From Eubacteriales bacterium (GTDB lineage Bacteria > Bacillota > Clostridia > Oscillospirales > CAG-272), in assembly GCA_045646945.1 (NCBI GenBank), contig JAZRLS010000062.1, positions 26,618 through 90,617 on the forward strand: DNA of 64,000 nt. Direction: 5' to 3'. The notes beneath the pieces are model-generated. The model worked only from the letters and a program-made list of their open reading frames with translations, was not told where the DNA came from and did no database searches. Position 1 is the stretch's first letter; the number at the start of each line of letters is the position of its first letter. Position numbers and translations under genes: made by a program. Shown here piece by piece: positions 21,428-36,207 of this stretch.

Positions 21428-21543
21428 TTTGAAGTGGATCAATTTTATGTGTTTCAAATCGTCTCATTTGTGTCCGTAAATTAAGCAATCAACATTTACG
21501 GATACTTATTTGTTCCATTTGTTTCATAAAGTGAAAACATGTT

Positions 21544-21564
21544 AAGGGTAAAAATAAGGGTCAA
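21544..21564. repeat. Paired AAGGGT(A/C)AA repeats, candidate integrase arm-type sites (left end)
   Basis: AAGGGTAAA at 21544 and AAGGGTCAA at 21556, 12-bp period. The same motif pair occurs at 38903/38915. Confidence 0.4.
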
Positions 21565-21599
21565 AATTTTTCATAAGACAGATGTTTTTATAATATACC

Positions 21600-21628
21600 T
21601 TGATAAATTGCATCAAATGATGTATAAT
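21600..21628 (+). promoter_or_regulatory. Sigma-A type promoter for the ApeA-like gene
   Basis: TTGATA-17 nt-TATAAT. Confidence 0.5.
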
Positions 21629-21667
21629 TAATCTAAACACTTACTTTATGATTGAGAGGTGAAAAAC

Positions 21668-23089
21668 GTGGAAAAGCCTGAGAGACTAATAGGATATGTG
21701 GAATATGAAAGCACAAACTTTCCTTTTGAATTTCACGAGGATTCTTTTACTATTACTCTTTTCCCTCCAACACTTGAAATCTGGGAAGAAGCTACATCCA
21801 TAAATAATATTTTTTCCAGAATAAACAGTAATAACAAAGAGCATAAATGGATAGGCTCTAAAGAGTTAACTGGAATCACCGCTAAAGGTCGAAAAATCGT
21901 ATTTGGAATTCAAGATCTGCGATCTAATTATAACGGATTTCATAGCTATCCTGTAAACTGGTATTTTTATTGTTCTCAAGAATTAGATTTAGATGCCATC
22001 GATGGATTTAAACTTGTTGGTAGAGAAATAGAGTATTTCTTTCCGCCCAATCAAGTGTTAAATCAAAGTATAAACTTTGACAAGGAAACAGGAGTTGTCA
22101 AAGAAATATCAGTAAATTCAACCGAGGAAATTACAGAAAGCTGCGGTAAGTATCGTATTATTCCTCATGTCGATGCCTCAATTGAAGTTTCGGCATATGG
22201 CATAGCTAACATCAATAATGATTTACCTCCACTCACCTCTAAAAGTATTATGACGACTACGTTTTCTGCTCCTGTTTCGCTACATACATTACTCGAGGCA
22301 TTTCATTACTCTGTCTGTTTCTTGCAGTATATTACATACAGAAAAAACATAGACCTTGATTCAATAGAGGTTTTCAAATTAGATGAAAAAGGGCTTCGAA
22401 ATTATTTGGGCATATTAGTCTTTGAAAAAAGCAATAGTACGGAAGCTCATCCAAAAGCTAATGAGCGAATTATCGATTTTTCGCTATTGAAACATCGAAC
22501 GGCAAAGCTGTATACTCTGATTAAAAATAGAAAACTGGCGTTTCAACATTTATGTGATTCAATTGACGATCGTCGCCACTATCCTCCGAGTAGAATTATT
22601 ATGATTCTTTCGTCCTTTGAAAGAGAATTTAGAAACATTTATGGACAAAACAGCGAACGCTCTGAGATATATCTAAACGTGCAGAATGACATTGTGTCTT
22701 TAATTGATAACTATATTGTCCAAAAACACGGCAAAGCGAGAAACTATGCTAAGCAATTCAAAAAATATGTAGAAAACAGAGATAGTAGTTTTGAATCTAA
22801 TTTAAAAAAGGCGTTATTAGATTGCAAGGATGTTATGCTTCCGTTTATTCGAAGAAAATATGTCAACAATTATGAAGAAGCAGTTGATGGTATTAGTGAA
22901 AGAATGGGAACTGTACGAAACGGGATTGCCCACAGCCGCTTAGATTTCAAAATCGATGCTATACACTTAAGTGATCTCAGAATTGTTCAGGAGCTTCTGT
23001 ATGTCATTAGATTAAAGAACATGCACCTTTCAACGAAAGAAATACAGAAGGCAATCAATAAATTATTTGGTGAAAACTTTGCAATATAA
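21668..23089 (+). CDS. ApeA-like protein with C-terminal HEPN domain
   Basis: C-terminal RNxxxH motif (GTVRNGIAHSRLDF) in a helical domain. ~300-aa beta-rich N-terminal domain. GTG 21668 is preferred (RBS GAGAGG) over 21659. Confidence 0.45.
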   Translation: MEKPERLIGYVEYESTNFPFEFHEDSFTITLFPPTLEIWEEATSINNIFSRINSNNKEHKWIGSKELTGITAKGRKIVFGIQDLRSNYNGFHSYPVNWYFYCSQELDLDAIDGFKLVGREIEYFFPPNQVLNQSINFDKETGVVKEISVNSTEEITESCGKYRIIPHVDASIEVSAYGIANINNDLPPLTSKSIMTTTFSAPVSLHTLLEAFHYSVCFLQYITYRKNIDLDSIEVFKLDEKGLRNYLGILVFEKSNSTEAHPKANERIIDFSLLKHRTAKLYTLIKNRKLAFQHLCDSIDDRRHYPPSRIIMILSSFEREFRNIYGQNSERSEIYLNVQNDIVSLIDNYIVQKHGKARNYAKQFKKYVENRDSSFESNLKKALLDCKDVMLPFIRRKYVNNYEEAVDGISERMGTVRNGIAHSRLDFKIDAIHLSDLRIVQELLYVIRLKNMHLSTKEIQKAINKLFGENFAI

Positions 23090-23092
23090 AAG

Positions 23093-23119
23093 GAACAGGT
23101 CGGTAATTCCGACCTGTTC
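23093..23119. terminator. Bidirectional terminator between convergent genes
   Basis: GAACAGGTCGG-taatt-CCGACCTGTTC, perfect 11-bp stem. Confidence 0.65.
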
Positions 23120-23127
23120 TAATTGTT

Positions 23128-24300
23128 TTATATGATCTTCTTAATGTATTCTTCCATCCTCCTTGCACTATCATCCTTCATCTTATCTGTAACATGTCCA
23201 TATACGTCCAACGTAAATGCGGCTGAATGGTGACCGAGATTTTCTTGGACAGTTTTTACATCATCACCGTTCTGAATAGAAGTAACGGCAAAGCTATGTC
23301 GCAAATCGTGAAACCGCTCCTCCGGCATACCTATTTGTGCAACGATGCGTTTGAAATGCTTTCGAATAGTTGTATGGGTCAAATGCCCTCCAGTTGCATT
23401 TTCAAACACGAGATTGGGAATATCCTCATTCCATAAATCATGCGCTGCCAAACGTTCCAATTCTTGTTCTACTTTACGCTTGCGTAGTAAATCCATTACG
23501 GTAGGAGCAACGTGAATTAAGCGAGTTTTATCATTTTTCAAAGAAGTCAGATAATACTTTCCTCCCGCAACCTTTTCGCGCTGTAGCTGATGCTTTACCA
23601 TAATTGTGTTATTATTAAAATCTACACAATCCCAAGTCAATCCTAATATTTCCCCCTGTCGCAAACCCGTAAACAGATCGATCAAGAATACAGCTTCATA
23701 CTTCGTACCCGAAGCTACATTTAAAAATTCTGCTATTTTTCCATCATCCAACGGTTTAATGTCTGGACGAGTAATTCGAGGCAAGGTGCAGTGATCTGCG
23801 GGATTAGATCGAATATATCCAACAATCACCGCTTGCAGCAAAGCCCGATGTAACACCCCATGAATATTCTTAACTGTTTTAGCTGCTAATGCTTTTTTGC
23901 CCTTTTCTTCACGGCTAAGCCCATTGATAAACCTTTGAACCATAGGAGGTGTTAAATCGGTGAGCTTAACCGCTCCAAGGGCGGGAATGATATGTAATCG
24001 TACACGGTCTTCATATGCTTTCTGCGTAAATGGTTTTACATTACCTGTATATTCTTCAAGCCATATTTGAAGCCATGCTCCAAGCGTTAATTTTAACGGT
24101 TTTGTATAAGAGCCGTTGTCAATTTCAACGGTGATTTGATTTAGCTTTTGACGTACTTCCTTCTGTGTCTTTCCGTAGACACTACGTTGTATTTGTTTTC
24201 CTGTGCCCGGATTAAAACCGGCACTATAACGACCTTCCCAACGACCGTCGGGACGTTGTCTAATGCTACCCGACCCATTTGCTGCATGACGTTTTGCCAT
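23128..24300 (-). CDS. int: Tyrosine-type site-specific integrase
   Basis: Arm-binding-type N-terminus (GSIRQRPDGRWEGRY). Catalytic motifs GLRQGE, HDLRHSFA, LGHHSAAFTLDVYGH. Confidence 0.9.
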   Translation of the reverse strand: MAKRHAANGSGSIRQRPDGRWEGRYSAGFNPGTGKQIQRSVYGKTQKEVRQKLNQITVEIDNGSYTKPLKLTLGAWLQIWLEEYTGNVKPFTQKAYEDRVRLHIIPALGAVKLTDLTPPMVQRFINGLSREEKGKKALAAKTVKNIHGVLHRALLQAVIVGYIRSNPADHCTLPRITRPDIKPLDDGKIAEFLNVASGTKYEAVFLIDLFTGLRQGEILGLTWDCVDFNNNTIMVKHQLQREKVAGGKYYLTSLKNDKTRLIHVAPTVMDLLRKRKVEQELERLAAHDLWNEDIPNLVFENATGGHLTHTTIRKHFKRIVAQIGMPEERFHDLRHSFAVTSIQNGDDVKTVQENLGHHSAAFTLDVYGHVTDKMKDDSARRMEEYIKKII

Positions 24301-24463
24301 ACGGTTTCCTCCTTTTTGTAAGTTGTTTTATTTTGAAAGGCAATAGATTCCTTTGAGATATATCACGAATAGAATATATCGGCTTGGTTTCAAAGAAATC
24401 TATTACCTGTTTTATTCAATATATCTTTGAAGAGCAAATAATAGAATAGCTCTTAAACCGAGG

Positions 24464-24688
24464 TTAATTTATCTCGGTATTATTTTCGATCCATTCAATG
24501 AACCGATCTCTGGGTATATATATTCTGCCCTCAATTGAAATTGTGGGAACTCCTTCTCTGTGAACTAATCTATAAAAAGCAGATCGAGATATGCCGATCG
24601 CCGCTATGTCCTTTACACTCAGCAATGCTGGGAGCGGTAAAGGGGTTACCATGATATTGAGTGAATTTGTTGTTATTGTATTATCCAT
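24464..24688 (-). CDS. xis: Excisionase-family HTH DNA-binding protein
   Basis: LSVKDIAAIGISRSAFYRLVHREGVPTISIEGRIYIPRDRFIEWI matches the excisionase/MerR-type winged HTH pattern. Lies directly upstream of int. Confidence 0.6.
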   Translation of the reverse strand: MDNTITTNSLNIMVTPLPLPALLSVKDIAAIGISRSAFYRLVHREGVPTISIEGRIYIPRDRFIEWIENNTEIN

Positions 24689-24815
24689 TTGTAGCCTCCG
24701 AAAGGGTTATTTTGAACTTTACAATAATGTCATTGCCTACATGGCTAATAATTGCTTATTAACGGTAAGGAATACACTTGATTATTGCAATGTAGCTTGG
24801 TTTACTTTAAATTAA

Positions 24816-26510
24816 TTAGATATTTAATAACTCTCTATATTTGTTAGAAATCCGTATACCCTTATAGGCTTCTTTGGGATTTCCTTTGGAAATCTTATTT
24901 CCTCGCTCATCAATGCGAACACGGGAGCGCTCAATACCTTTTAGGGTTAAAAACTTTGTTATATCTCCTTTCTTTTTATCCTCGATTTCATTCATAGCGC
25001 AAAAGCTGCTGAAAGCTACTCTTACATTTTTTGATGACTCATAACAATCCTCATTGCATTTCAAGCATTGTTCAAAGAATACTTCTTCGGGACAATATAA
25101 GACCTTTCCCTTCGTGTTGGCATCTGAGGATACTTTACATGTAGGGAATTTCCGTCCTTCAGAGATATATTCTGTTAATCCATCCATAGCCCATGTGAAG
25201 ATTCCATCCCTCTCGTTCCAAAGTTTATCGACGAGCTGGGGATCTTTGTCTTTTTCTGGAGTGGACGGGTTTAAAAACGGGATGTAAATCAATCTGCTAA
25301 AAATAGCATTTACATCTTCTTGCGACAGATCTGACGGAAGAAGCAGTTTGTGGTTCGTGCAAAAAATCATTTTTACGCCGCCTGAAATGGTTTTAGGATC
25401 ACTATGACGCGACGACGCAACCACTGTATCATTGCTTGATACCAAATTTTTGAAGTGCCCGGGATCTCCAAGCGGTGTATTTGAAACATCCGTTGCAATA
25501 TTTAACCACGCATTGTCCAATTGCACCACATAACTTGGTTTTGACATGTTTGAAAAATCATTATGCTTTACCAAACCGTCGGGGAAGAAAAGCTCTATAA
25601 TTAAACATAAGATAGTCTTTCCCGTATCGGTATCACCCAAGAAAACGAATGCTTTTTTGGCATCCTTGTAAAAGCTGAAAATGTAACCGAGCATTACTTG
25701 GATTAATTTTTTAAGTTTCTTATTTCCTTGGGTAATGTTGTCCACAAACGCATGGAACATTTCGCAAGATGCATCAGGATTGTAACATGCTTGAATACAA
25801 CAATTAAATCTATAATCGGGAGAGTGCTTTAATAATATATTATTTTTTGCATCAAATACCCCATTCAAGCAATTTACCAAAGCACCGTTTTTATAAAATG
25901 GTTCATCTGTATACAATCTTGCATCTGTAAATAGTAGCTTATATGCTTCGTGATAGTCTGAAGTTTTGATTCTTAATTTAGCATCGGAAGAAAGCCCCAT
26001 ATCACAAAGCACCGAAAATTGTTGTTCTGTAAGCTGTTCATATGAACCACTTAGATCGTTGTAATTGTATAGACAATCTTTTACAATGACAAGCGATTGG
26101 CTATTAATTTTCAATTCTGCCAGCAAATTCGGACGGCGTTCGGGTTCTTCTTTCACGGTCTTTTCAAACTTTTCTCTCGCGGCGCGAGCTTTCTTTCTTT
26201 TCTTTTTATCGATCTTCTTTTTCTCTTTATCCCTTGAATGCTTCGATACATATGTACTATATGCGGGCTTTGCTAACGGGGAATAAGAATTAATATCATT
26301 AAGCGCCCGAAGAATATCGGATCGCTCCTGCTCGGAAAACGATCTTCCAAGAATAAGGCGGTGATTATCAATTACAATAATACCGTCTATTACCTTTGCA
26401 CCTCTACAGTACAAATCTTTTATTTTGTCTTGCACTTTCGGTGCATAAGGATTGAGGATATTATTTATGTCATTATTATAAAACAAATCAGAATTAGATA
26501 TGGAAATCAT
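24816..26510 (-). CDS. P4/D5-family primase-helicase-like protein (SF3 helicase)
   Basis: Walker A FLGDTDTGKT and D5_N-like region upstream. ATG 26510 with RBS GGGGGAAA. No primase catalytic domain recognised by eye. Confidence 0.65.
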   Translation of the reverse strand: MISISNSDLFYNNDINNILNPYAPKVQDKIKDLYCRGAKVIDGIIVIDNHRLILGRSFSEQERSDILRALNDINSYSPLAKPAYSTYVSKHSRDKEKKKIDKKKRKKARAAREKFEKTVKEEPERRPNLLAELKINSQSLVIVKDCLYNYNDLSGSYEQLTEQQFSVLCDMGLSSDAKLRIKTSDYHEAYKLLFTDARLYTDEPFYKNGALVNCLNGVFDAKNNILLKHSPDYRFNCCIQACYNPDASCEMFHAFVDNITQGNKKLKKLIQVMLGYIFSFYKDAKKAFVFLGDTDTGKTILCLIIELFFPDGLVKHNDFSNMSKPSYVVQLDNAWLNIATDVSNTPLGDPGHFKNLVSSNDTVVASSRHSDPKTISGGVKMIFCTNHKLLLPSDLSQEDVNAIFSRLIYIPFLNPSTPEKDKDPQLVDKLWNERDGIFTWAMDGLTEYISEGRKFPTCKVSSDANTKGKVLYCPEEVFFEQCLKCNEDCYESSKNVRVAFSSFCAMNEIEDKKKGDITKFLTLKGIERSRVRIDERGNKISKGNPKEAYKGIRISNKYRELLNI

Positions 26511-26727
26511 ATTGTTTCCCCCAAACAAAAAATCTCGTACCCATTACCGCTAAGGATAATTCGTACGAGAGGAATTCCGTATTTATTATTATGAACCGCG
26601 GCAATGGCTTTTATAGATTAAAATAATTAATATAATAAATTATAAATTACTGATTGATTCTCTAATTTAATATTTGTGAATTAGAAAATAATCATTTTAA
26701 TCAACAAAACCACTGGAGCGTGGGATT

Positions 26728-26756
26728 GTTTATTGATAAATATTAAATCAATAAAC
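26728..26756. repeat. Perfect 10-bp inverted repeat in AT-rich non-coding region
   Basis: GTTTATTGAT-9 nt-ATCAATAAAC. Confidence 0.6.
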
Positions 26757-26958
26757 GCAGGTGCGTTTGTTAGCCGTTCGGCTACCTCTATCCTCCTTTA
26801 AATTGGATTTTATAAAGAAAATCATAAAATGAATTTTCCTTGTGCTTCTAACATGTATTAGTGAAATAATTGTTTGTCTCGAATTGAAATATAACAACTA
26901 TTTTCTTAGCACAGTTTTATTATACCATATTTTTCCCAAAAAATCAATCCCTTTTAGA

Positions 26959-27003
26959 TCTTTTTTTGAACTAAAATTGTAGTGTCTTTTTTTGAGCTAA
27001 AAT
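26959..27003. repeat. Two 19-bp direct repeats (iteron- or recombinase-site-like)
   Basis: TCTTTTTTTGAACTAAAAT and TCTTTTTTTGAGCTAAAAT, 26-bp period, 1 mismatch. Confidence 0.6.
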
Positions 27004-27171
27004 CGCACCAATTCCACTAATTAGATTATTTCATTAAAATAGATTAGTTATTAATCGTGTTTATATAATTCATTGTGTCAAAATAAAACCAAATTGGATA
27101 TTTAAGTTGTTAAATCATTATTTTTATGCACGACAGTTGAAAAGCAGACACAAATGACACATAAATAATAC

Positions 27172-27780
27172 CTAATTTTGAATTTGTAAATTAGTTAATT
27201 TATAAAATACCGTCTTTTTCATTCCCAAGCGTGTCATAGCTTCTTTGGCGGTGATTGTTCCGTTTTTCCATTCCGCATAGACTTCATCCCAATTGGCGGG
27301 CTTTTCGATACGTGGGCGACCGAGGTGTTTGCCCTGTGTCTTAGCAGCCTCGATGCCTTCTTGCTGTCGTTGACGGATGGTAAGGCGTTCCTGCTCGGCA
27401 ATCGTGCCGAGGACTTCTATCAGAATATTATTTACCATATCGAACACCCATTCTTGCCCCTTGGGGAGATCCATCATGGTTGTCGGCAGATCGATGACCT
27501 TTAGGTGGATATTGTGCTCCTTGAAATATTGCAGCTCGTTGTGGATATCTGTTTTATTACGGCTCAGACGGTCAAGGGATTTAATAATAAGCGTATCACC
27601 GCTACGGAGCATTGTGTTTTTCAATGCTTGATAGCCGCTACGTCCCAAGCTCTTGCCGCTCTCCTTATCCGTGATAATATCCCTCTCGTCTGCGCCGAGC
27701 TTACGGAAAGCTTCAAGCTGACGGTCAAGGTGCTGCTCTTTGCTTGAAACACGAGCATAATAGAAAACTTTATTTTGCAT
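27172..27780 (-). CDS. Small serine recombinase (resolvase/invertase family)
   Basis: YYARVSSKEQHLDRQ catalytic Ser, IKSLDRLSRN, C-terminal HTH. ATG 27780 with RBS GGAGG. Confidence 0.85.
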   Translation of the reverse strand: MQNKVFYYARVSSKEQHLDRQLEAFRKLGADERDIITDKESGKSLGRSGYQALKNTMLRSGDTLIIKSLDRLSRNKTDIHNELQYFKEHNIHLKVIDLPTTMMDLPKGQEWVFDMVNNILIEVLGTIAEQERLTIRQRQQEGIEAAKTQGKHLGRPRIEKPANWDEVYAEWKNGTITAKEAMTRLGMKKTVFYKLTNLQIQN

Positions 27781-27803
27781 ATAACCTCCAAAAAAAGAAA
27801 ACA

Positions 27804-27831
27804 CCCGTAACGGCTCTGTGACCGTTACGGG
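27804..27831 (-). terminator. Rho-independent terminator after the FrhB-like gene
   Basis: CCCGTAACGG/CCGTTACGGG 10-bp stem followed by TGTTTTCTTTTTTT on the minus strand. Confidence 0.7.
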
Positions 27832-27914
27832 CTGAATTGTCCCATCAACCACTAGCAGTGCTGGTGGCACCAAAAAACTTTAGCTATGCGTAGAAAAAAC
27901 ACCTCCTTGTTCGT

Positions 27915-28913
27915 TCATTTTTTGTTCTTCTTTTGTTTTTTAATGATTGTCTTTAAACTTTTTGGAATAACTTTTTTTATAATCTTTTTAACCCTGCCCT
28001 TTAAACCTATAAAGCGATTTACAGCGGAAATGAGGTTATGTTTTGACAACAAATCAGCAAATACGTCGCGTTTGTCATTTGGCTTTTTTGACATAATTAC
28101 CATCTTGTTTTTTTCTACTGCTTTTTCAAAAGTTGTATGAAATAGTTTTATTCTAGGGGTGGAGTTTATAAAGGCATCTCCCTTTTCTGTTTCCGCAAAA
28201 ATAGATGAAACACCATATTTATTCCAATATACATCACTACAGGTTGCTCCCCAAAAATCACCAATCATAATATCGCCTTGTCTGTTATTCCCTTTAAATT
28301 GGCAATTATAACACGATGGTTTTCCCAAAATGGAAAAAGCATATCCATATTCAGTTTCATAAAAAGGTTTTTGATATATTTTTCCGTTATCAAATTTTGC
28401 ATATAGATACGAAGGTTGCCATGCATCTAATTTGTGTCTTACCGAAAAGTCTATTACTTTGCTTTTGTACTTTTTTTCCAAATATGCTATGTAGTCAAAA
28501 TGAACTTTGGCATATGTTGGGCCATGACATATCAGTTCACAGGTTATAAGATTCTCTGGCTTTGCACCTATGAATGTGTATAATGCTGCGATAATGCAAG
28601 GCAAACCAAAAAACAATACTACTTTCCCTGTATCAACTAAATTTTTCACATCAGCGTAGATGCCTGTTTTATCACAATCGATATATTTAGATCCTTTCAG
28701 TTTGTATAAGTCCGATATATCGTCGATAATAATGTATTCTGCTTTGTAAAAATCCTTGCTGTACGCAACTCCGACAACATAGCCGTCTTGCGACAAAACA
28801 AATTCACTTAATGCGGTAGCTATACCACCAGAAGCACTTTGTAGCAATTTGGCATCATTATCCAAATACCCTCCGTATACAGCAACATCGTGTTTGTTGT
28901 ATTCTTCATACAT
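27915..28913 (-). CDS. Coenzyme F420 hydrogenase/dehydrogenase beta-subunit (FrhB/FdhB)-like protein
   Basis: SASGGIATAL N-domain motif, Cys cluster (CELICHGP, CYNCQFKG), Lys-rich tail. RBS AAGGAGG 8 nt before ATG 28913. Confidence 0.55.
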   Translation of the reverse strand: MYEEYNKHDVAVYGGYLDNDAKLLQSASGGIATALSEFVLSQDGYVVGVAYSKDFYKAEYIIIDDISDLYKLKGSKYIDCDKTGIYADVKNLVDTGKVVLFFGLPCIIAALYTFIGAKPENLITCELICHGPTYAKVHFDYIAYLEKKYKSKVIDFSVRHKLDAWQPSYLYAKFDNGKIYQKPFYETEYGYAFSILGKPSCYNCQFKGNNRQGDIMIGDFWGATCSDVYWNKYGVSSIFAETEKGDAFINSTPRIKLFHTTFEKAVEKNKMVIMSKKPNDKRDVFADLLSKHNLISAVNRFIGLKGRVKKIIKKVIPKSLKTIIKKQKKNKK

Positions 28914-28933
28914 TTTTGTAGCCTCCTTTTTTG

Positions 28934-29093
28934 CACTAAAAGTATAGTTATGGCTGATTTTTCCGCCATAGGAATTTTTACGGTTATCATTATATCACAT
29001 TCGCCGCCATTTGTCAATATTTCACGAATAGAATTGTGAAATATTGGCGCTTTTTCATATGAAAACAGTTTTGCTATAACTATACTTTTAGTG
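28934..29093. repeat. 21-bp inverted repeats flanking a 118-bp promoter-containing segment (candidate inverton)
   Basis: CACTAAAAGTATAGTTATGGC (28934-28954) versus the reverse complement of GCTATAACTATACTTTTAGTG (29073-29093): 20 of 21 match. Confidence 0.6.
28989..29017 (-). promoter_or_regulatory. Consensus sigma-A promoter facing the FrhB-like gene, overlapped by an 11-bp palindrome
   Basis: Minus strand TTGACA-17 nt-TATAAT. The -35 overlaps the inverted repeat CAATATTTCAC (29015-29025) / GTGAAATATTG (29036-29046). Confidence 0.6.
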
Positions 29094-29684
29094 AAAATCC
29101 AAGGTTTTTCCTTTCTTGTAGAACGCCCACAGTGGCATTCCGCAAGCCTCGGCTGCCTCTTTTGCGGGCAGTTTTTTATTTTTCCAGAGCAGATAATACT
29201 TCTCATAGTCGGGCGGTATGTGGAAGGGCGGTCTGCCGAAGCGCACACCTCGTTTCTTTGCCGCCGCAATCCCCGATGCCTGACGCTCTCTGATATTGAT
29301 GCGCTCGTTCTCGGCAACGAAGGATAAAAGCTGTAAAACCAAATCCGAAATAAACGTACCGAGCAGATCCTTGCTCTTGGTGGTATCAAGAAGCGGCATA
29401 TCAAGCACAATAATATCCGCTTTTTTCTTTTGCGTGATCTTCTTCCATTCCTCTTGAATCTCGTGGTAGTTGCGCCCGAGACGGTCAATGCTCTTGATAA
29501 TGAGAATGTCGCCCTCGTGTAAGCTGCGGTACATCCTGATATACTGCGGTCGGCAGAAGTCCTTTCCGCTTTGCTTGTCTATGTAGATGTTCGATAGCTC
29601 AATGCCGTAGGCAGTCAGCTCGTCAAGCTGTCGGTCTTCCTTTTGTGTAACGGACGATACTCTTGCATATCCTATTTTGATGAT
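29088..29684 (-). CDS. Small serine recombinase; catalytic N-terminus in frame but without ATG/GTG/TTG start
   Basis: In-frame upstream of the tracked ORF: IIKIGYARVSSVTQKEDRQ (catalytic Ser). Also IKSIDRLGRN and a C-terminal HTH. RBS AGGAGG lies 5-8 nt before the ATC codons at 29684/29681. Confidence 0.6.
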   Translation of the reverse strand: MIKIGYARVSSVTQKEDRQLDELTAYGIELSNIYIDKQSGKDFCRPQYIRMYRSLHEGDILIIKSIDRLGRNYHEIQEEWKKITQKKKADIIVLDMPLLDTTKSKDLLGTFISDLVLQLLSFVAENERINIRERQASGIAAAKKRGVRFGRPPFHIPPDYEKYYLLWKNKKLPAKEAAEACGMPLWAFYKKGKTLDFH

Positions 29685-29740
29685 GAATCCCTCCTTTCCG
29701 GCGGCGAAATGCGATATAAGATATTATATCATAAAGGGAT

Positions 29741-29836
29741 TTAACAAGTGTTTGCTTTGTGCGTCTTTTTGTAGCTGAGATAGATATCCACAAGCACCTC
29801 TATCACGGCTAAAATAATCAGCTTCAGATATTTCAT
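29741..29836 (-). CDS. 31-aa hydrophobic peptide ORF (below the ORF-track cutoff)
   Basis: MKYLKLIILAVIEVLVDIYLSYKKTHKANTC. RBS AAAGGAG 4 nt before the ATG. Lies 13 nt after the amidotransferase stop. Confidence 0.25.
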   Translation of the reverse strand: MKYLKLIILAVIEVLVDIYLSYKKTHKANTC

Positions 29837-29849
29837 AATACTCCTTTCG

Positions 29850-30794
29850 TTAGTAGCTGTAACAGCCGTAAATATAGTCCTCGATTTCATCGGGGGAGAA
29901 CCCCTCGGCTACGAGCGCATCGATCTCCGAGGACTCATACCCCTCCATCAGAGCGGCTTGTTTGAGCATAGACATGTAATCGTCCTTACTGCTCTGACTT
30001 TGCGTGGGGGTGGTAAAGCCCCATCCGTAATCGTACCAACGGCACAAGCCGTATGCCGCATATTCGTCATAGTCAAACTCGGAATAGGATAGCTCTCCCC
30101 GTGGCGTAATCTTCAAGATTTGTCCCTCTTCGAGAGGGATTTCCTCATAATGTCCGAGCTTCAAGGTGTCAAATAGCTTGGTGTTGATGACCGATTTCCA
30201 CAAGATTTCCTCGGTGCTTGCGTACACGAACAGCTTTTCCTTTGGGAAATGCAGAACGGCAATGGGATTATCACCCTTAATCAAATAAATATTACTCTGA
30301 TCGTCAAGCAGGGCAAACGAAAAGCTCCCCGACACGGTTTCAGCCATAAAGCGCAGGCTGTTCTCGTCGAGGAGCTTCTGTTGTTCAATCAGTTGCACGG
30401 CAATGTAGCTATCGGTTTCGATCTTGCTCTTGGGTAGGCGGTACTGCTTTTGCAGCTCGTCCATGTTGTATAGAACACCGTTATGAGTAAGGGCAAATTT
30501 TGTGCCTCCGGCTTTGCCGTAAAAGGGATGATTGTTGTAATTCTTCTTAGCAAGACCGTGGGTGGCGTGTCGGGTGTGTCCGATGATTGCCGATACTTCC
30601 TTGGGCGGCTTGAACGTGACCGCATATGCCGCCTTGGGAGTTTTGTCGATCACAATGCGGTTCTTATAGTGATAGGCAATTCCGCAAGCATCTGTGCCTC
30701 GTACCGAAGATTCGCTTGCAAGCTCGTTGAGAAGTGCCGCCAAGTCTATCTTTGATTCTTCCGCATAGGATGAAAATCCGAAGATTCCGCACAT
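29850..30794 (-). CDS. Stand-alone class-II (Ntn-type) glutamine amidotransferase
   Basis: N-terminal nucleophile MCGIFGF. HTRHATHG, NNHPF and HNGVLYN blocks. No fused synthase domain. Confidence 0.8.
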   Translation of the reverse strand: MCGIFGFSSYAEESKIDLAALLNELASESSVRGTDACGIAYHYKNRIVIDKTPKAAYAVTFKPPKEVSAIIGHTRHATHGLAKKNYNNHPFYGKAGGTKFALTHNGVLYNMDELQKQYRLPKSKIETDSYIAVQLIEQQKLLDENSLRFMAETVSGSFSFALLDDQSNIYLIKGDNPIAVLHFPKEKLFVYASTEEILWKSVINTKLFDTLKLGHYEEIPLEEGQILKITPRGELSYSEFDYDEYAAYGLCRWYDYGWGFTTPTQSQSSKDDYMSMLKQAALMEGYESSEIDALVAEGFSPDEIEDYIYGCYSY

Positions 30795-30795
30795 C

Positions 30796-31887
30796 TTATA
30801 TTTCCTCGCTTTCCTCTGTGATTTCGTTGATGTATAGCCGCTTGGATTTGAGATACTTGATAAGCTCGTCCTTGCCCTTGATATCGCCTACAAATTCGCT
30901 CCAAGACAGCCCTTCGATCTCAGTGTCACTTCTGTCCTTACAAACGTGGCAAAGCTCGTCCACAAGCTGTAAGGTGGCAAGGAAGGTGTTGTAATTGAGC
31001 GTTCCACGGAACAGACGAAACTCCACCGTAGCGTAATTGCAGAGGTTGACCGCAACGTATCTTCCGTAGCTTTTGTCCTTGGCATTCTTGTAGGTGTTGG
31101 CGGTGTTCTCAGAAATCCCGTAACGGCTTGCCCAACGATTGATGTTATCCACCGTTCTGCGGGAGAATTTCAAAAGCTCGTTCCAATGGTTCTCCACAAA
31201 GAAGACGATACGGGCAATGACTGACTCCTGTGCTTCTTCACTCTCACCGAATGCCGAGCGGTTGACGTGGCAGTGCAGACCGCAAGTATCGGTGTCATGG
31301 GAGCGGTATTCCATCTTGATCGCCTTTCGAAATACCTCTTGCCAATTCATACGCTCGGTATGATAATCAAGCGTCATAGGATGCGACACAAGCTCAAAGC
31401 CGTCTTCAAGGCTTCCGTCATGTTTGCAGTACAGATGCTCGTCATCACGGTTGGCTATGTACATAAGCGTATCAGCATTGTCACTGCATTCACCGCCATC
31501 GTCGATTTCAAGCTCCACGCCGATAAACAAATCGCCCTCTCCGTAGAAGATCGGAGAGGGCTTGTAATTGTAGCTTTCAATACTGCTGTCATTCAGACGG
31601 TCATAGCAAGAGGAACAGTAGTCACGGTCGGAATCCTCGTCGTAGCAGGCATCATCCTCGCAAATCAACCGACCGCAGTCCGAGCAGTGAATGAAGTTGT
31701 ATTCGTAACAGTGGTTGCAGAGGGTGTAATTGTCCTCGTGGATGGCATCACTGCGCCATATGCGCTCTCCGCAGTGTTGGCAGAGAACGGTCTTTTCTTC
31801 AAGGCAATCCTCGCACATGGTGGTTTCGTTCATGTAGTGGGTGTTTTCATCGTCGAGCGGTTTCCCGCAAAATTCGCATTTCGTCAT
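30796..31887 (-). CDS. Multi-zinc-ribbon N-terminus fused to an Amidoligase_2-type (glutamine-synthetase-like) domain
   Basis: Five CxxC pairs in the first ~95 aa. Then GVELEIDDGG, KHDGSLEDGFELVSHP, CGLHCHVNR and VEFRLFRGTLN. Its stop abuts the GATase start. Confidence 0.6.
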   Translation of the reverse strand: MTKCEFCGKPLDDENTHYMNETTMCEDCLEEKTVLCQHCGERIWRSDAIHEDNYTLCNHCYEYNFIHCSDCGRLICEDDACYDEDSDRDYCSSCYDRLNDSSIESYNYKPSPIFYGEGDLFIGVELEIDDGGECSDNADTLMYIANRDDEHLYCKHDGSLEDGFELVSHPMTLDYHTERMNWQEVFRKAIKMEYRSHDTDTCGLHCHVNRSAFGESEEAQESVIARIVFFVENHWNELLKFSRRTVDNINRWASRYGISENTANTYKNAKDKSYGRYVAVNLCNYATVEFRLFRGTLNYNTFLATLQLVDELCHVCKDRSDTEIEGLSWSEFVGDIKGKDELIKYLKSKRLYINEITEESEEI

Positions 31888-31904
31888 GGTGTTTCTCCTT
31901 TGTG

Positions 31905-32075
31905 TTAATTTTCAGATGTGCTTTCGGCACAGGCTTTGATAGTCTTCTTAACAAAAAACACCGCCCGATATAGAGCGGTGATCAGAAGCGTGGCAACAGC
32001 GGCAATGACGGCAAGCACCGCATGGACCGCTTTCTTGACGGCAGGGTGATTCTTGATTTTCTTGACGCTTTTCAT
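31905..32075 (-). CDS. 56-aa small membrane protein ORF (below the ORF-track cutoff)
   Basis: MKSVKKIKNHPAVKKAVHAVLAVIAAVATLLITALYRAVFFVKK..., one TM, same strand as its neighbours. Confidence 0.3.
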   Translation of the reverse strand: MKSVKKIKNHPAVKKAVHAVLAVIAAVATLLITALYRAVFFVKKTIKACAESTSEN

Positions 32076-32117
32076 GGTAGTTTCTCCTTTGTTTTGTATT
32101 TGATTTTTGTGTTGTTT

Positions 32118-32402
32118 TTAATACTCCTCGCAGAAGAGCATGGTTGCATGGGTTTCGTCATTGATAACGTAGATCTTCGCCGTGATCGACACATCCGACA
32201 GTAATAGATATTCCTTGCGGTAGTCCGGGCATTCCTGCGTGTGTACGATCCTCAGTTTGCCGCCCTCTGTGGATAGCTGAAATACCTGTAAGTAGTCGGG
32301 TGAAAAAGGCAGTGCGTCAATGCACTGCCATAAAAATAATTGAACGGCGAGCGGTATCTCTCGACTTACCGCCGCCGTTGCGTAACGTTGTGGTGGGAAC
32401 AT
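32118..32402 (-). CDS. Small conserved-looking hypothetical protein
   Basis: 94 aa with RBS AGGAGG before the ATG. First gene of the GC-richer minus-strand module. Family not recognised with confidence. Confidence 0.4.
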   Translation of the reverse strand: MFPPQRYATAAVSREIPLAVQLFLWQCIDALPFSPDYLQVFQLSTEGGKLRIVHTQECPDYRKEYLLLSDVSITAKIYVINDETHATMLFCEEY

Positions 32403-32490
32403 GTGTACCTCCTATGATTGTGATTTCATAGGTATGGTGTATAATTTAGAAATCTTGATATTTGATTTTTTAGATCATGGTACACTTGGC

Positions 32491-32519
32491 TTGAATTGCT
32501 ATCACATTTATGTTATAAT
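32491..32519 (+). promoter_or_regulatory. Sigma-A promoter for the NACHT gene
   Basis: TTGAAT-17 nt-TATAAT with a TGT extended -10. Confidence 0.55.
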
Positions 32520-32554
32520 AAAGTACAACAAGTATCAATAGAGGAGTTAAAACG

Positions 32555-34834
32555 ATGATTAAAGATTATTTTTTTAATTGGTGTCTTGATTTTATAAAAG
32601 ACAGACTAAAAGACAAAGTTAAATTAGGGAAAGTAAAATCTAATTTAAGCAAATATATTGACGACTGTTTAAAAGATAATGAATTATGTACAGTGGAAGA
32701 AGAATTTGATTTTCAGGGATTGTGTGATTACTTAAAAGATAGCTGTTTAGATGAAGTTAAGAAGTATATATGTTCTAATGGCGAAAGACGAAAAAGAATA
32801 AGAGAAGATATTGTTGCAAAAGCAATTGAGTATTCAAATGCGAAAATGAAAGTATCTGTCCAAAGAGTTGAAAAAATAACAAATAACGCTATTGATATTA
32901 TCTATGATTTTTATAGAAGTGAAAGTAATAATGATTTACTGTTGTTAATTGGAGAAACTCAGGAATTGATTTGTGAAACGTATGAAGCATTAAGAGATCA
33001 AAACGAAAAACTTGCAGAAGACGTTAAAGCGATCGTTAAGGATGAATCTAAAATAAGAAAAATAGAAGAATTTGATACGATTTCCACCTATATCAACACC
33101 TTCATTAAACAACAGAAAGAAAATGTTAAGAATCAAACCATATTTCCGTGGTTTAATGATTCTCCCAAGTATCGAGAAGTCTTTCCAAAATTGTTTGTTT
33201 TTCCAACATTCAAGGAAGGAAACAATAATGTCACATTAGAGAATTTAACATCTAAATCGGGAGAGAACATCGCAATTCTTGGTGATGCTGGAGCAGGAAA
33301 ATCAACTTTGTTAAGATATATATTTGCCTTTACCGAAATACCTCAATGCTCTTGTCTATATATAACAGCTAAGGATACAAAAAAGGAAAATGGTATATTA
33401 GATGTAATCTCTCTATATTCTCAAAAAAATAACAATTGTCGATATTTGATATTTATTGATGGTGTAGACGAAGCTTACCACAACGATTATTCTGGATTTG
33501 AGTTTTTAATAACAAAAATAAAAACAATTACAAATTGCAAATTTTGGCTTGGTTGTAGAACTGATTACTATAAAAAGTATTATGGAGAAAATATATGCTT
33601 TGTTAACCACAATTACGAAATTAATCCTTGGTCACCAGAGCAAACAGAAAAATTTATTCACGAATACGCGATTATTAGGAAAAATCCAGAAATAAATAAA
33701 TTTGTTGATAAATTAACCGACGGAAACGAATCGGTGGAAAAATTAAAGTCAAATCCATTTCAACTTTCTTTAATTGTTTTTTTAGCCGATATAAAAGAAG
33801 ATAAGCCAGTAATATGTATGTATGATCTGTACGAAAGGTTTATGCAAAAATGGTTTGATAGAGAGCAGAAAAGAGGGACTTGCTCTGATGAAAATAAAAT
33901 TATACTAAATAAATTACGTGAAGCTGCTAAAGCAATATATAATAATAGTACAATTCTAATTGATGATACTATTAAGAAGAATACTGCGGCTAGCGACCTA
34001 TTAGTTATTAATGAAATTGACATATACAATGAAAGATATGCATCTGCCTTCTATCATCGCAGCTTAGCCTCATTTTTGTTGGCACAGCAAACCATTGAAA
34101 TGTTATTTGGCAATGATGTTGAGCAAGTCATAAATGTTTTGTCTTATAAATTGAAAGATGATGTAACGAATTTTGTGGGAGATAAATTTTCCACCTTATC
34201 TCAAGCAGAAAAAGCTAGAATAAAAAACAATTTACATCACTTCTATAAATCGATTCCGGATGATGAAGAAAATTTAAGCGTTAGAGAACAGATTATATAT
34301 TACATAACAAGGCTTGATATTGATGTTTCAGATTTTCTTGTTGAAGTTATTAATAGTAATCCTCAACACCCTATTATGAGATTAACATTGGCATATGGAT
34401 GTGCACTTTCTGAAAATATGATAGCAAGGGATTTTGCTTTGTCATATGCAAAATCAATATCCAATGAAACAATTGATGCAATAACGAATAGAGCTTGGAC
34501 TGTTGTATATTTTGATGATATCAATAGGGATCCCTATACATATAGAGACAATGAAAAATGCCAATGGAAAAATGCAAGAATGGCGAGGATAAAAAGGTTT
34601 ACAAAAGAAGAACCAAGAGTCAAAGATTACAGATTTAGACTGTTTGACATTCCTTTGTTTTATAGTTTTTTAAACGATCGTGGGTGGAAAGACATATCTG
34701 ATGAGGAATATCGCATATTGGCAAACATCGACTTCCCATTAAATATTTTCAATTATGAAGAAATATGTTTTTTAAATGAACAAAAGGCAAAATTGTTATT
34801 TGAATATGAGAAGCATTTAAATAATAATCAATAA
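32555..34834 (+). CDS. NACHT-type STAND P-loop NTPase
   Basis: Walker A ILGDAGAGKST, Walker B YLIFIDGVDEA, NPFQLSLIV, FYHRSLASFLLA (NACHT winged-helix-type motif). ~240-aa helical N-domain and ~250-aa C-domain unassigned. Confidence 0.75.
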   Translation: MIKDYFFNWCLDFIKDRLKDKVKLGKVKSNLSKYIDDCLKDNELCTVEEEFDFQGLCDYLKDSCLDEVKKYICSNGERRKRIREDIVAKAIEYSNAKMKVSVQRVEKITNNAIDIIYDFYRSESNNDLLLLIGETQELICETYEALRDQNEKLAEDVKAIVKDESKIRKIEEFDTISTYINTFIKQQKENVKNQTIFPWFNDSPKYREVFPKLFVFPTFKEGNNNVTLENLTSKSGENIAILGDAGAGKSTLLRYIFAFTEIPQCSCLYITAKDTKKENGILDVISLYSQKNNNCRYLIFIDGVDEAYHNDYSGFEFLITKIKTITNCKFWLGCRTDYYKKYYGENICFVNHNYEINPWSPEQTEKFIHEYAIIRKNPEINKFVDKLTDGNESVEKLKSNPFQLSLIVFLADIKEDKPVICMYDLYERFMQKWFDREQKRGTCSDENKIILNKLREAAKAIYNNSTILIDDTIKKNTAASDLLVINEIDIYNERYASAFYHRSLASFLLAQQTIEMLFGNDVEQVINVLSYKLKDDVTNFVGDKFSTLSQAEKARIKNNLHHFYKSIPDDEENLSVREQIIYYITRLDIDVSDFLVEVINSNPQHPIMRLTLAYGCALSENMIARDFALSYAKSISNETIDAITNRAWTVVYFDDINRDPYTYRDNEKCQWKNARMARIKRFTKEEPRVKDYRFRLFDIPLFYSFLNDRGWKDISDEEYRILANIDFPLNIFNYEEICFLNEQKAKLLFEYEKHLNNNQ

Positions 34835-34883
34835 TAACTGGGTTTCATATAACACATTTCCGTCATCTTCGTAAACATCAAAG

Positions 34884-34920
34884 CCCTTGAAGCACTATGC
34901 TCTCAAGGGTTTTCGCTTTT
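34884..34920 (+). terminator. Rho-independent terminator after the NACHT gene
   Basis: CCCTTGA/TCAAGGG stem followed by TTTTCGCTTTT. Confidence 0.55.
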
Positions 34921-34975
34921 ATCACATCCAAGACATATAAACTCATTTAACATATCCTAAATTCGATATCTCTTG

Positions 34976-35004
34976 TTGAAAAATATCGGATAAAGTGATA
35001 TAAT
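34976..35004 (+). promoter_or_regulatory. Sigma-A promoter for the HNH-HEPN operon
   Basis: TTGAAA-17 nt-TATAAT with a TGA extended -10. Confidence 0.55.
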
Positions 35005-35030
35005 TATTGTATGGAAGGAGGCTGATTTGT

Positions 35031-36155: not shown

Positions 36156-36207
36156 TTTTTTATGCTGTTAATATTTTTTGCACTATATAAGTAACAAGGA
36201 GGTCAGT

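What the first reader, a model, noticed from the sequence alone, without database searches (positions are those of the whole stretch)
28934..29093. Candidate invertible promoter (inverton) between a serine recombinase and the FrhB-like gene
A 21-bp inverted repeat (28934-28954 and 29073-29093, 20 of 21 matching) brackets a 118-bp segment. That segment contains a perfect TTGACA-17-TATAAT promoter on the minus strand (28989-29017). In the sequenced orientation it points at the FrhB-like gene (RBS plus ATG at 28913). The -35 is overlapped by a second, perfect 11-bp palindrome (29015-29025 / 29036-29046), which could act as an operator. The right repeat overlaps the stop codon of a small serine recombinase, and a second serine recombinase lies just downstream of the FrhB-like gene. 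IR-flanked promoters next to a recombinase are the hallmark of phase-variable switches such as Mpi-type serine invertases in Bacteroides. Flipping would turn the cargo gene off and send transcription antisense into the recombinase gene.
Basis: partly seen in the sequence, partly recalled or inferred. Interest (0 to 1): 0.65.

Follow-up and report, generated by a model that had tools for sequence, protein, structure and literature searches.

The report
Invertible promoter switch on mobile island
A 118-base DNA segment carrying a strong promoter sits between two inverted repeats next to a small serine recombinase gene, and close relatives carry it in either orientation, so it is very likely a genuine flip-flop switch controlling a highly variable cargo gene slot on a mobile island of gut Clostridia.

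Summary
Arms 28930-28954 and 29073-29097 match 23/25 and bracket 118 nt. That segment holds a perfect TTGACA-17-TGnTATAAT promoter on the minus strand, aimed at the FrhB-like gene.

The inverton reading is strongly supported by comparison. Thirteen contigs share the same recombinase (rec1) but carry the segment flipped. The breakpoints lie inside the 14-bp core AAAAGTATAGTTAT. The inner arm mismatch travels with the segment and the outer flank stays. Two inner alleles are each seen in both orientations.

Relatives at 55-84% protein identity keep the same layout: stop codon in or beside one arm, a promoter, a second arm 125-138 bp away, then variable cargo. Some are ON and some are OFF.

The 11-bp "operator" palindrome is better read as a terminator stem. 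It ends rec1 transcription only in the flipped (OFF) state.

rec1 is not an Mpi-family protein; its closest solved relative is Sin.

The switch lies on a ~17.6-kb island integrated at tRNA-Ser. The cargo slot begins exactly at the outer arm and differs between relatives.

Switching within one clone could not be tested, because no raw reads were available.

Verdict: a real switch, and a new variant of a known kind.

The parts
28930..28954 (.). Cargo-side inverted-repeat arm. The conserved core AAAAGTATAGTTAT is 28938-28951. The inner three bases (GGC here) belong to the invertible segment.
29073..29097 (.). rec1-side inverted-repeat arm. The core is 29076-29089, and it overlaps the rec1 TAA stop at 29088-29090. 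Its outer flank (AGTGAAAATCC) is the same in both orientations.
28955..29072 (.). Invertible 118-nt segment. It is in the ON orientation in this window (promoter towards cargo) and flipped in L001-L013.
28989..29017 (-). Sigma-70-type promoter TTGACA-17-TGnTATAAT (12/12). The transcription start is inferred at about 28982.
   Evidence: the identical promoter is on the opposite strand relative to rec1 in L001
29012..29059 (+). Hairpin (16 pairs including G-U) followed by CTTTTTCATA. It is terminator-like on the strand that becomes rec1-sense when the segment is flipped. It overlaps the -35.
27915..28913 (-). Cargo gene in this window: a FrhB/FdhB-like protein of 332 aa, with RBS GGAGG at 28922-28926.
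   Evidence: a 68%-identical homologue sits behind another recombinase plus inverton in L030
27839..28937 (-). Variable cargo slot. Similarity to relatives stops at the outer end of the IR core on one side and at 27838 on the other.
29088..29684 (-). rec1, a small serine recombinase of 198 aa if started at ATC 29684 (the ATG-called ORF is 29088-29534). It is the candidate invertase.
29151..29183 (+). Terminator-like hairpin plus T-run inside rec1 on the antisense strand. In the flipped state it would end a transcript of about 140 nt, antisense to the rec1 3' end (inferred).
   Evidence: the hairpin energy is not exceptional
29700..29719 (-). Motif TTATATCGCATTTCGCCGCC in the rec1 5' leader. 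Its near-copy at 28990-29008 (+) forms the spacer and -10 of the switch promoter.
29723..29731 (-). Putative extended -10 (TGATATAAT) of rec1's own promoter. This rests on sequence inspection only.
27172..27780 (-). rec2, a second small serine recombinase, 38% identical to rec1. It is preceded by a terminator-like hairpin at 27803-27832.
21405..39023 (.). Host island of about 17.6 kb. It is bounded by a 23-bp direct repeat (21405-21427 and 39001-39023) at the 3' end of tRNA-Ser(GCT). GC is 33-40% over most of the island (49% in the 30-32 kb bin), against about 45-53% outside.

Best explanation
The 118-nt segment 28955-29072 is a site-specific invertible promoter/terminator cassette (an inverton).

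Proposed mechanism: a small serine recombinase recombines the two copies of the core AAAAGTATAGTTAT, which sit 138 bp apart centre to centre, and flips the segment. The most likely enzyme is rec1, whose stop codon lies inside one arm.

ON state, as sequenced here: the consensus promoter fires through the cargo-side arm into the cargo slot, which here holds a FrhB-like gene. The hairpin has no T-tail on the rec1-sense strand, so rec1 transcripts can also read through.

OFF state, as seen in most relatives: the same hairpin plus T-run lies directly after the rec1 stop and acts as its terminator. The promoter then points back into rec1. There it would make a short antisense RNA that ends at a terminator-like site inside rec1.

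The switch gives phase-variable expression of a cargo slot whose content differs between otherwise near-identical copies of a tRNA-Ser-integrated mobile island of ruminant-gut Clostridia.

Shown: the repeats, the promoter consensus, both orientations in nature with breakpoints inside the core, and conservation of the architecture.

Inferred: which recombinase acts, promoter and terminator activity, the antisense RNA, and switching within a clone.
For: 1. The IR and promoter are far beyond chance.

2. L001 (a yak-caecum Clostridia MAG), L002-L011 (identical 148-aa rec1) and L012-L013 (98% identical rec1) all carry the segment flipped relative to rec1. The window is the opposite state.

3. The inner arm mismatch (TAT[G/A]GC) moves with the segment, while the rec1 flank AGTGAAAATCC stays. 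This places the crossover inside the 14-bp core.

4. Metagenome contigs show 'opposite strands' joints exactly at the arms. OFF is seen in X1, X2, X3, X7, X25, X26 and X38. ON is seen in X44, X48, X49 and X50. Both are seen in X45 and X46.

5. Two inner alleles each occur in both orientations. The loop allele GAATAGAATT is ON in the window and OFF in L007, where the inner segment is 97.5% identical. The GAAGC[C/T]TTCC allele is OFF in L001, L004, L009 and L010 and ON in contigs from X44, X45, X46, X48 and X49. This implies at least two independent flips.

6. The architecture is conserved while the sequence diverges. L014 (81% aa), L017 (84%), L021-24 (76%), L025 (74%), L026 (71%), L015/16 (77%) and L030 (a more distant Resolvase-domain relative) all share it. 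Each has a first arm that overlaps the stop codon or starts within about 15 nt after it, and a sigma-70-like promoter (decayed in L017). Each has a second arm whose inner sequence co-varies with the first, followed by different cargo. Some are ON (L015/16, L025, L030) and some are OFF.

7. Arm spacing clusters at 136-138 or 125-129 bp, about 13 or 12 helical turns.

8. The hairpin is stronger on the strand that is rec1-sense when OFF: -19.4 kcal/mol (z -3.7) against -15.3 (z -2.2). Variation there is U-A to U-G, which is tolerated only on that strand. In L001 the scan calls it a terminator on the rec1-sense strand.
Against: No read-level data show both orientations in one clonal population. 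The only raw-read runs held nothing, and contigs drop minority variants.

In X45 the ON and OFF contigs differ at 3 of 91 positions, so they are different alleles rather than one element caught switching.

Promoter, terminator and antisense RNA rest on consensus scans only. The antisense hairpin folds no better than shuffles, and no doubly compensatory pairs support the main hairpin.

Which recombinase acts is not shown, and rec2 is also adjacent. rec1 lacks a canonical start codon, so it could be poorly expressed or non-functional.

A 138-bp loop is tight for serine-recombinase synapsis and would probably need a DNA-bending protein.
Confidence: 0.85

Rival explanations
1. This is a fixed historical inversion rather than an active switch. 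Rare illegitimate or homologous recombination between the short repeats flipped the segment once or twice in evolution. The orientations are now stable lineage markers.
For: No within-clone heterogeneity was demonstrated. The ON and OFF contigs in X45 are different alleles. Nearly all assembled loci with identical rec1 are in one state.
Against: Two alleles are each found in both states. More distant lineages are again mixed ON and OFF. The arms stay matched to each other while the interior and flanks diverge. The spacing keeps helical phase. The arm always abuts a serine recombinase gene. A 14-25-bp repeat is a poor substrate for RecA-dependent recombination (established knowledge).
Confidence: 0.08
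2. The switch is real but is driven by rec2, or needs both recombinases. In this reading rec1 is a poorly translated or decaying gene.
For: rec1 has no ATG/GTG/TTG start. rec2 has a normal ATG and RBS and flanks the cargo on the other side. An 'empty' metagenome variant puts the IR directly beside the rec2 leader.
Against: The arm overlaps the stop codon of rec1 or its homologue in the window clade, L014, L015/16 and L017, and lies within about 15 nt of it in L021-26. Several relatives show no rec2 within the fetched flanks: L015/16, L017, L026 and L030. The rec1 N-terminus, including YARVSS, is conserved at the protein level. The SD plus ATY arrangement is conserved across 77-84%-identical relatives, which argues that rec1 is translated.
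Confidence: 0.12
3. The repeats are the termini of a miniature mobile element, or subsites of a res-like resolution site for island multimers, and not an expression switch.
For: Serine resolvases bind dyad-symmetric sites close to their own genes (established knowledge). The closest solved relative of rec1 is the Sin resolvase.
Against: There are only two arm copies in 64 kb. The element is always at the same place relative to rec1. The segment is actually found inverted, which a res site or MITE does not predict. A perfect promoter lies inside, facing a gene with a good RBS.
Confidence: 0.03

Closest known systems
Bacteroides fragilis Mpi-controlled invertible promoters (capsular polysaccharide loci)
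   Same: Both have a short IR-flanked promoter segment flipped by a small serine recombinase of about 200 aa. Both control surface-related genes in a gut anaerobe.
   Different: rec1 is not an Mpi-family protein: it scores 34.7 bits against the 272-bit cutoff of NF009949. The IR core AAAAGTATAGTTAT is unrelated to the Mpi repeat as I recall it. Here one recombinase is tied to one adjacent switch, with its stop codon inside the arm, rather than one master invertase acting on many dispersed promoters. The segment also carries a terminator. The host is a Clostridia mobile island.
Hin/Gin/Cin/Pin DNA invertases (Salmonella fljBA H-segment; phage Mu G segment)
   Same: The enzyme is a small serine recombinase. 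In Hin an invertible promoter gives ON/OFF expression of downstream genes. The crossover sites have partial internal dyad symmetry, here AAAAGTA|TAGTTAT.
   Different: In those systems the segment is 1-4 kb and, for Hin, contains the recombinase gene and a Fis-bound enhancer (family knowledge). Here the segment is 118 nt and the gene is outside. No enhancer could be identified. Sequence similarity to Gin (E 1.5e-13) is weaker than to Sin (6e-29).
Sin and beta recombinases of Gram-positive plasmids and transposons
   Same: These are the closest solved relatives by sequence. The host phylum is Firmicutes. Beta recombinase is known to catalyse inversion as well as resolution with the help of an HU-type bending protein (from memory), which would suit a 138-bp loop.
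   Different: Their sites lie upstream of the recombinase gene and serve multimer resolution and autoregulation, not promoter inversion. No site I / site II arrangement was recognised here.
Clostridioides difficile RecV switches (cwpV, flgB)
   Same: Both are short invertible elements of about 150-200 bp in a Clostridia member. In both, orientation decides whether a terminator forms or a promoter reads into a surface-protein gene (family knowledge).
   Different: RecV is a tyrosine recombinase encoded elsewhere in the genome. Here a serine recombinase abuts the switch, and the cassette combines a promoter and a terminator.
Small serine recombinases as markers of anti-phage defence loci (RADS; Andersen et al., PLoS Biol 2026, PMC13552941)
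   Same: Both involve a small serine recombinase immediately next to, and possibly co-transcribed with, highly variable accessory genes on mobile DNA of Bacillota. That paper only postulates that inversion might regulate such genes.
   Different: Here an explicit invertible promoter is identified between recombinase and cargo. The cargo seen so far matches no PADLOC defence model and looks mostly surface-associated: LRR_5, SLH and WG repeats.

Membership tests
Inverton (site-specific invertible promoter switch) | Inverted repeats flank a short DNA segment | tested here: met
   25-nt arms, 92% complementary, 118 nt apart. Two copies against 0 expected by chance.
Inverton (site-specific invertible promoter switch) | The segment carries a promoter whose orientation decides expression of a flanking gene | tested here: inconclusive
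   A 12/12 sigma-70 consensus with extended -10 faces a gene with a good RBS. Promoter activity was not measured.
Inverton (site-specific invertible promoter switch) | Both orientations exist, with breakpoints in the repeats | tested here: met
   The window is ON and L001-L013 are OFF. Joints lie at the arms in metagenome contigs. The inner mismatch travels with the segment.
Inverton (site-specific invertible promoter switch) | Both orientations coexist within one clonal population (phase variation) | not testable with these tools
   The raw-read runs held no matching reads and no further raw runs were listed. X45 and X46 hold both states, but on different alleles.
Inverton (site-specific invertible promoter switch) | A site-specific recombinase is encoded nearby | tested here: met
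   Two PF00239 Resolvase-domain genes are present, and one of them has its stop codon in the arm.
Mpi family master DNA invertase (NF009949) | The protein scores above the family cutoff | tested here: not met
   rec1 scores 34.7 bits and rec2 36.4 bits against a cutoff of 272.
Hin/Gin/Cin/Pin enhancer-dependent invertases | Closest sequence relatives are the invertases, and the recombinase gene with its enhancer lies inside or at the edge of a kb-sized segment | tested here: not met
   Sin resolvase is the best solved match (6e-29), against Gin at 1.5e-13. The segment is 118 nt and the gene lies outside it. The presence of an enhancer is not testable.
Small serine recombinase (resolvase/invertase, PF00239 plus C-terminal HTH) | Resolvase catalytic domain with the conserved serine motif | tested here: met
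   PF00239 matches, at E 2.7e-14 on the truncated ORF. YARVSS is present in the upstream continuation. There is full-length similarity to Sin, Gin and gamma-delta resolvase.
Miniature inverted-repeat element / IS termini | The same IR-bounded unit is repeated at unrelated sites | tested here: not met
   There are only the two arms in 64 kb. In all relatives the unit is at the same position after the recombinase gene.

The most novel reading that the evidence does not exclude
The recombinase-plus-inverton module may be a portable 'phase-variable expression platform' with integron-like behaviour.

In this reading, the outer IR arm doubles as the entry point where cargo cassettes are exchanged by the serine recombinases, with rec1 on one side and rec2 on the other. 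The invertible promoter/terminator then switches whatever cassette is present.

This would give a mechanistic reason for the recently reported genome-wide linkage of small serine recombinases with hypervariable accessory or defence genes.

The evidence does not exclude it. Similarity between relatives stops exactly at the outer end of the 14-bp core. At least eight different cargo sets follow the same arm. An 'empty' variant joins the arm directly to the rec2 leader. A core-like sequence (GGTACACCTTTTAG) marks the far end of the cargo in L001-L006.
Probability: 0.2. Interest if true: 0.85.

Novelty: new variant of a known kind. Interest (0 to 1): 0.62.

Why it matters
Invertible promoters are well known in Bacteroides and enterobacteria, and catalogues exist for gut bacteria. 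In Clostridia the catalogued switches are mostly linked to tyrosine recombinases (PMC11892184).

This locus defines a compact, self-contained and apparently widespread module in gut Clostridia. It consists of a Sin-like small serine recombinase, a promoter-plus-terminator cassette of about 105-125 nt whose arm overlaps or directly follows the recombinase stop codon, and a hypervariable cargo slot on a mobile island.

It offers a concrete, testable mechanism for why small serine recombinases sit beside variable accessory genes, an association reported in 2026 without a mechanism (PMC13552941). It predicts that surface proteins (BspA-type LRR, SLH, WG-repeat) and FrhB-like proteins are phase-variable in ruminant-gut Firmicutes. 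It also provides a very small recombinase/site pair that could be useful as a genetic switch.

Tried and rejected
- Exact search for the IR pair in genome contigs found 0 hits. The arms of relatives differ outside the core.
- Exact 37-mer of the promoter in JGI metagenome contigs found 0 hits.
- Raw-read runs X63 and X64, from the same study as an ON-holding run, held no matching reads.
- A request for runs with library word 'WGS' listed none. A PhaseFinder-style read count was therefore impossible.
- Rfam scan of 26500-30000 found nothing relevant.
- The exact FrhB-like protein is not on record elsewhere, so the same cargo could not be found in the OFF state.
- A PADLOC scan of nine cargo proteins plus the FrhB-like protein found no defence family, apart from one weak LeoBC hit at E 0.002.
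- A phage search with the 81-nt module 27835-27915 found no match. A plasmid search with 27100-29800 found only distant recombinase similarity.
- RNAalifold on the hairpin found no doubly compensatory pairs, only U-A to U-G changes.
- The idea that the palindrome is an operator was considered and ranked below the terminator reading.
- The idea that the shared 20-nt motif is an antisense promoter in the rec1 leader was considered and rejected, because there is no -35 and no TGn.
- The MITE and res-site readings were rejected (see rivals).

Full report
**The observation**

The repeat finder reports arms 28930-28954 and 29073-29097, 25 nt long, 92% complementary, with 118 nt between them. This is the best short-range inverted repeat in the whole window. 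A 22-nt arm sequence with up to three mismatches occurs only at these two places, against 0 expected in 100 shuffles.

Inside the segment, on the minus strand, lies TTGACA-17-TATAAT with a TG extended -10 at 29017..28989. It matches 12 of 12 and is the only such site in 27000-30500. It faces GGAGG (28922-28926) and the ATG at 28913 of a 332-aa protein with FrhB_FdhB_N and FrhB_FdhB_C domains.

The perfect 11-bp palindrome 29015-29025 / 29036-29046 is present. The right arm contains the TAA stop (29088-29090) of a Resolvase-domain ORF, which I call rec1. A second Resolvase gene, rec2 (27172-27780), follows the cargo. rec1 and rec2 are 38% identical.

**The recombinase gene**

rec1 is listed as only 148 aa because nothing upstream of the catalytic N-terminus is an ATG, GTG or TTG. 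The frame nevertheless continues to ...GKEGF-IIKIGYARVSS, with GGAAAGGAGG followed after 5 nt by ATC ATC.

Sixteen of the eighteen related loci examined show the same arrangement: the SD is followed by ATC/ATT and no canonical start (L015/16 have a TTG 2 nt after the SD). This includes relatives at 81-84% protein identity, whose database entries carry long false N-terminal extensions for this reason. I therefore treat rec1 as an intact gene with a conserved non-canonical start. This is an inference.

Its closest solved relative is Sin / Tn552 Bin3 resolvase (E 6e-29). Gin invertase and gamma-delta resolvase are more distant (about 1e-13). It is far below the NCBIfam cutoff for the Mpi family, at 34.7 bits against 272.

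**Evidence that the segment inverts**

- **Assembled relatives.** An exact search with the promoter core found one species-representative genome, a yak-caecum Clostridia MAG (L001). Look-up of the exact 148-aa rec1 protein returned ten metagenome contigs (L002-L011). A 98%-identical variant returned two more (L012 and L013).
- **Orientation.** In all thirteen the promoter lies on the strand opposite to rec1, so the segment is flipped relative to the window.
- **Position of the crossover.** The alignment shows that the rec1-side flank (GGATTTTCACT) and the 14-bp core AAAAGTATAGTTAT are unchanged. The single inner mismatch between the arms (TAT-G-GC versus TAT-A-GC) has moved with the segment. 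The crossover is therefore inside the core.
- **Metagenome contigs.** Logan contigs of gut metagenomes give 'opposite strands' joints exactly at the arms (28934<->29094 and 28952<->29076) in X1, X2, X3, X25, X26, X38 and X7. A query made of the ON-specific junction found runs that hold the window's arrangement: X44, X45, X46, X48, X49 and X50. X45 and X46 hold both arrangements, but on alleles that differ at a few positions.
- **Independent flips.** The loop allele GAATAGAATT is ON in the window and OFF in L007, where the inner segment is 97.5% identical. The GAAGC[C/T]TTCC allele is OFF in L001, L004, L009 and L010 and ON in contigs from X44, X45, X46, X48 and X49. At least two independent inversions have therefore occurred among very close relatives.

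**Conservation of the architecture**

More distant recombinase homologues carry the same layout with diverged sequence.

| Locus | Protein identity to rec1 | Arm sequence | State | Cargo or note |
|---|---|---|---|---|
| L014 | 81% | TAAAAGTATAGTTTT | OFF | |
| L017 | 84% | partly decayed | OFF | |
| L021-L024 | 76% | AATGTATAGATTTAGC | OFF | includes an SLH protein; L024 has different cargo right after the arm |
| L025 | 74% | GTATAGGTTTACTC | ON | WG-repeat and LRR_5 proteins |
| L026 | 71% | | OFF | a dynamin-like protein |
| L015/16 | 77% | | ON | faces a STAS / anti-sigma kinase / sigma-factor operon next to recA |

L030 was found independently, through a 68%-identical homologue of the FrhB-like cargo. 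It has another family member followed by a 14-nt IR (AGTGTACTTTTTGA) 115 nt apart. A promoter there faces the FrhB-like gene.

Within each lineage the two arms match each other in their inner parts while differing between lineages. Arm centres are 136-138 bp or 125-129 bp apart, about 13 or 12 helical turns. One homologue with a normal ATG in a chromosomal context (L019) has no switch.

**The palindrome**

The palindrome extends to 16 pairs with G-U. On the window's plus strand it is followed by CTTTTTCATA, and the scan calls it terminator-like there.

That strand is antisense to rec1 in the window. It becomes rec1-sense when the segment is flipped. In L001, which is OFF, the scan calls the same element a terminator on the rec1-sense strand, immediately after the stop codon.

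The RNA is more stable on that strand: -19.4 kcal/mol (z -3.7) against -15.3 (z -2.2). Natural variants change U-A to U-G, which is tolerated only on that strand. No doubly compensatory change was seen.

I therefore read the cassette as a promoter plus terminator. In OFF it terminates the upstream operon (amidoligase, GATase, rec1) and faces the promoter away from the cargo. In ON it drives the cargo and lets upstream transcription through. An operator role is not excluded.

**A possible antisense RNA**

In OFF the promoter points into rec1. About 85 nt inside rec1, on the antisense strand, is a hairpin plus T-run (29151-29183). It is flagged in the window and in L001. It is present, with different stem sequences, in L014, L015, L017, L021, L025 and L026, and weaker in the switch-less L019.

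This would bound an antisense RNA of about 140 nt. The hairpin folds no better than shuffles, and its sequence is constrained by the WKxKK..AKEAA protein motif. This step is weakly supported.

**Context**

The switch lies on a low-GC island (33-40% over most of it, against about 45-53% outside). The island is bounded by a 23-bp direct repeat at 21405-21427 and 39001-39023, the latter being the 3' end of tRNA-Ser(GCT).

The island encodes the following:
- a tyrosine integrase
- an HTH_17 excisionase-like protein
- a D5_N primase
- rec2, the cargo and rec1
- a class-II glutamine amidotransferase
- an amidoligase
- DUF960
- a STAND NTPase
- a weak Phage_CRI-like replication protein

Between near-identical copies of this backbone, similarity stops exactly at the outer end of the core on the cargo side. 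It resumes at 27838, just before the rec2 leader hairpin.

The slot holds different genes in different copies:
- FrhB-like in the window
- a BspA-type LRR lipoprotein in L001
- 121 + 117 + 114 aa in L002 and L005
- 253 + 138 (weak WG-repeat match) + 391 aa in L003 and L013
- 181 + 134 (WG repeat) + 694 aa (LRR_5) in L004 and L006
- 181 + 134 + 402 aa in L009 and L010
- small zinc-ribbon proteins in L007, L012 and L014

None matches a PADLOC defence model. One metagenome contig joins the arm directly to the rec2 leader, giving an 'empty' slot.

**Comparison with known systems**

Functionally this is an inverton of the Hin and Mpi kind: a small serine recombinase with an invertible promoter. It fails the Mpi membership test and is nearer to Sin and beta-type enzymes.

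It differs from Hin in three ways. The segment is tiny, the recombinase is external, and the cassette also carries a terminator.

A catalogue of invertons in gut isolates links its largest Clostridia-dominated inverton group (group 139) to tyrosine-type recombinases; a text search of that paper for 'serine' found no mention (PMC11892184).

A 2026 paper shows that small serine recombinases mark variable defence loci in Bacillota. It only speculates that inversion might regulate them (PMC13552941).

I found no description of this module, but literature coverage is limited to the held library.

**Verdict**

I put rec1 as the invertase at about 0.7.

Switching within a clone remains to be shown. 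The locus is a new variant of a known kind, of moderate to good interest.

Noticed in passing
window 29679-29695 (minus strand); L001-L018: rec1 and its close relatives have a strong SD (GGAAAGGAGG) followed 5 nt later by ATC ATC, ATT ATA or ATT ATT, and no ATG/GTG. L015/16 have a TTG only 2 nt after the SD. This points to a conserved non-canonical ATY start codon. It explains why gene callers truncate these proteins or over-extend them (P0001, P0002, P0005).
   Followed up: partly
window 28990-29008 (+) and 29700-29719 (-): A 19-20-nt motif TTATATC[A/G]CATT(T)CGCCGCC occurs twice against 0 expected. One copy is in the rec1 5' leader. The other forms the spacer and -10 of the switch promoter on the opposite strand. 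The pair co-varies in relatives (L014 CACACTTGCCG; L021 and L025 ATATCACATT(A)TGCGG; L015 TGTACCATAT.TG). Its relative orientation tracks the ON/OFF state. It may be a shared operator or an RNA-RNA pairing element, but this is unexplained.
   Followed up: partly
window 27847-27908: A module of about 60 nt between the FrhB-like stop and the rec2 leader has 5-10x the depth of its surroundings in four gut metagenomes. Many different sequences adjoin it on both sides. In other contexts it is preceded by a -10-like box and followed by gene starts. It has no Rfam or phage match.
   Followed up: partly
window 21405-21427 and 39001-39023; tRNA-Ser 39001-39093: A 23-bp direct repeat TGGCGGAGAAGGAGAGATTTGAA, one copy being the 3' end of tRNA-Ser(GCT), bounds a low-GC island of about 17.6 kb. 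These are probably the att sites of an integrative, possibly mobilizable, element.
   Followed up: partly
L001 4520-4640; L002-L006 upstream of rec2: In L001-L006 the cargo ends at a conserved module of about 125 nt that starts GTAAAGGTACACCTTTTAGAAC. Its beginning resembles the IR core plus outer flank (CTATACTTTTAG), in direct orientation to the cargo-side arm. The window lacks this module. It could be a degenerate third recombination site.
   Followed up: no
window 27838 joined to 29089 in run X2: One metagenome contig joins the IR arm directly to the rec2 leader with no cargo between. This looks like an 'empty' cargo slot.
   Followed up: no
L015 and L016, 3540-3780: A 77%-identical recombinase next to recA has the same kind of switch in the ON state. 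It faces a 109-aa ORF followed by a STAS anti-anti-sigma factor, an anti-sigma kinase and a sigma factor. This may be a phase-variable sigma-factor module.
   Followed up: no
L030 4826-5000: In a chromosomal context (polC upstream, MatE downstream) in GCA_053456045.1, another small serine recombinase is followed by a 14-nt IR pair 115 nt apart. A promoter there faces a 68%-identical FrhB-like gene. FrhB-like proteins are therefore recurrent cargo of such switches.
   Followed up: partly
L013 1085-1260 versus L003 and L004: The inner segment of L013 is chimeric. Its promoter half is of the common type and its terminator half and cargo are of the L003 type. This indicates recombination within the segment between variants.
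   Followed up: no
window 32555-34834; L004 53-535; L007 392-1282: At the other end of the conserved backbone (beyond DUF960) the island carries different defence-like genes in different copies. These are a STAND NTPase in the window, SocA_Panacea in L004 and AbiTii in L007. This is a second variable hotspot.
   Followed up: no
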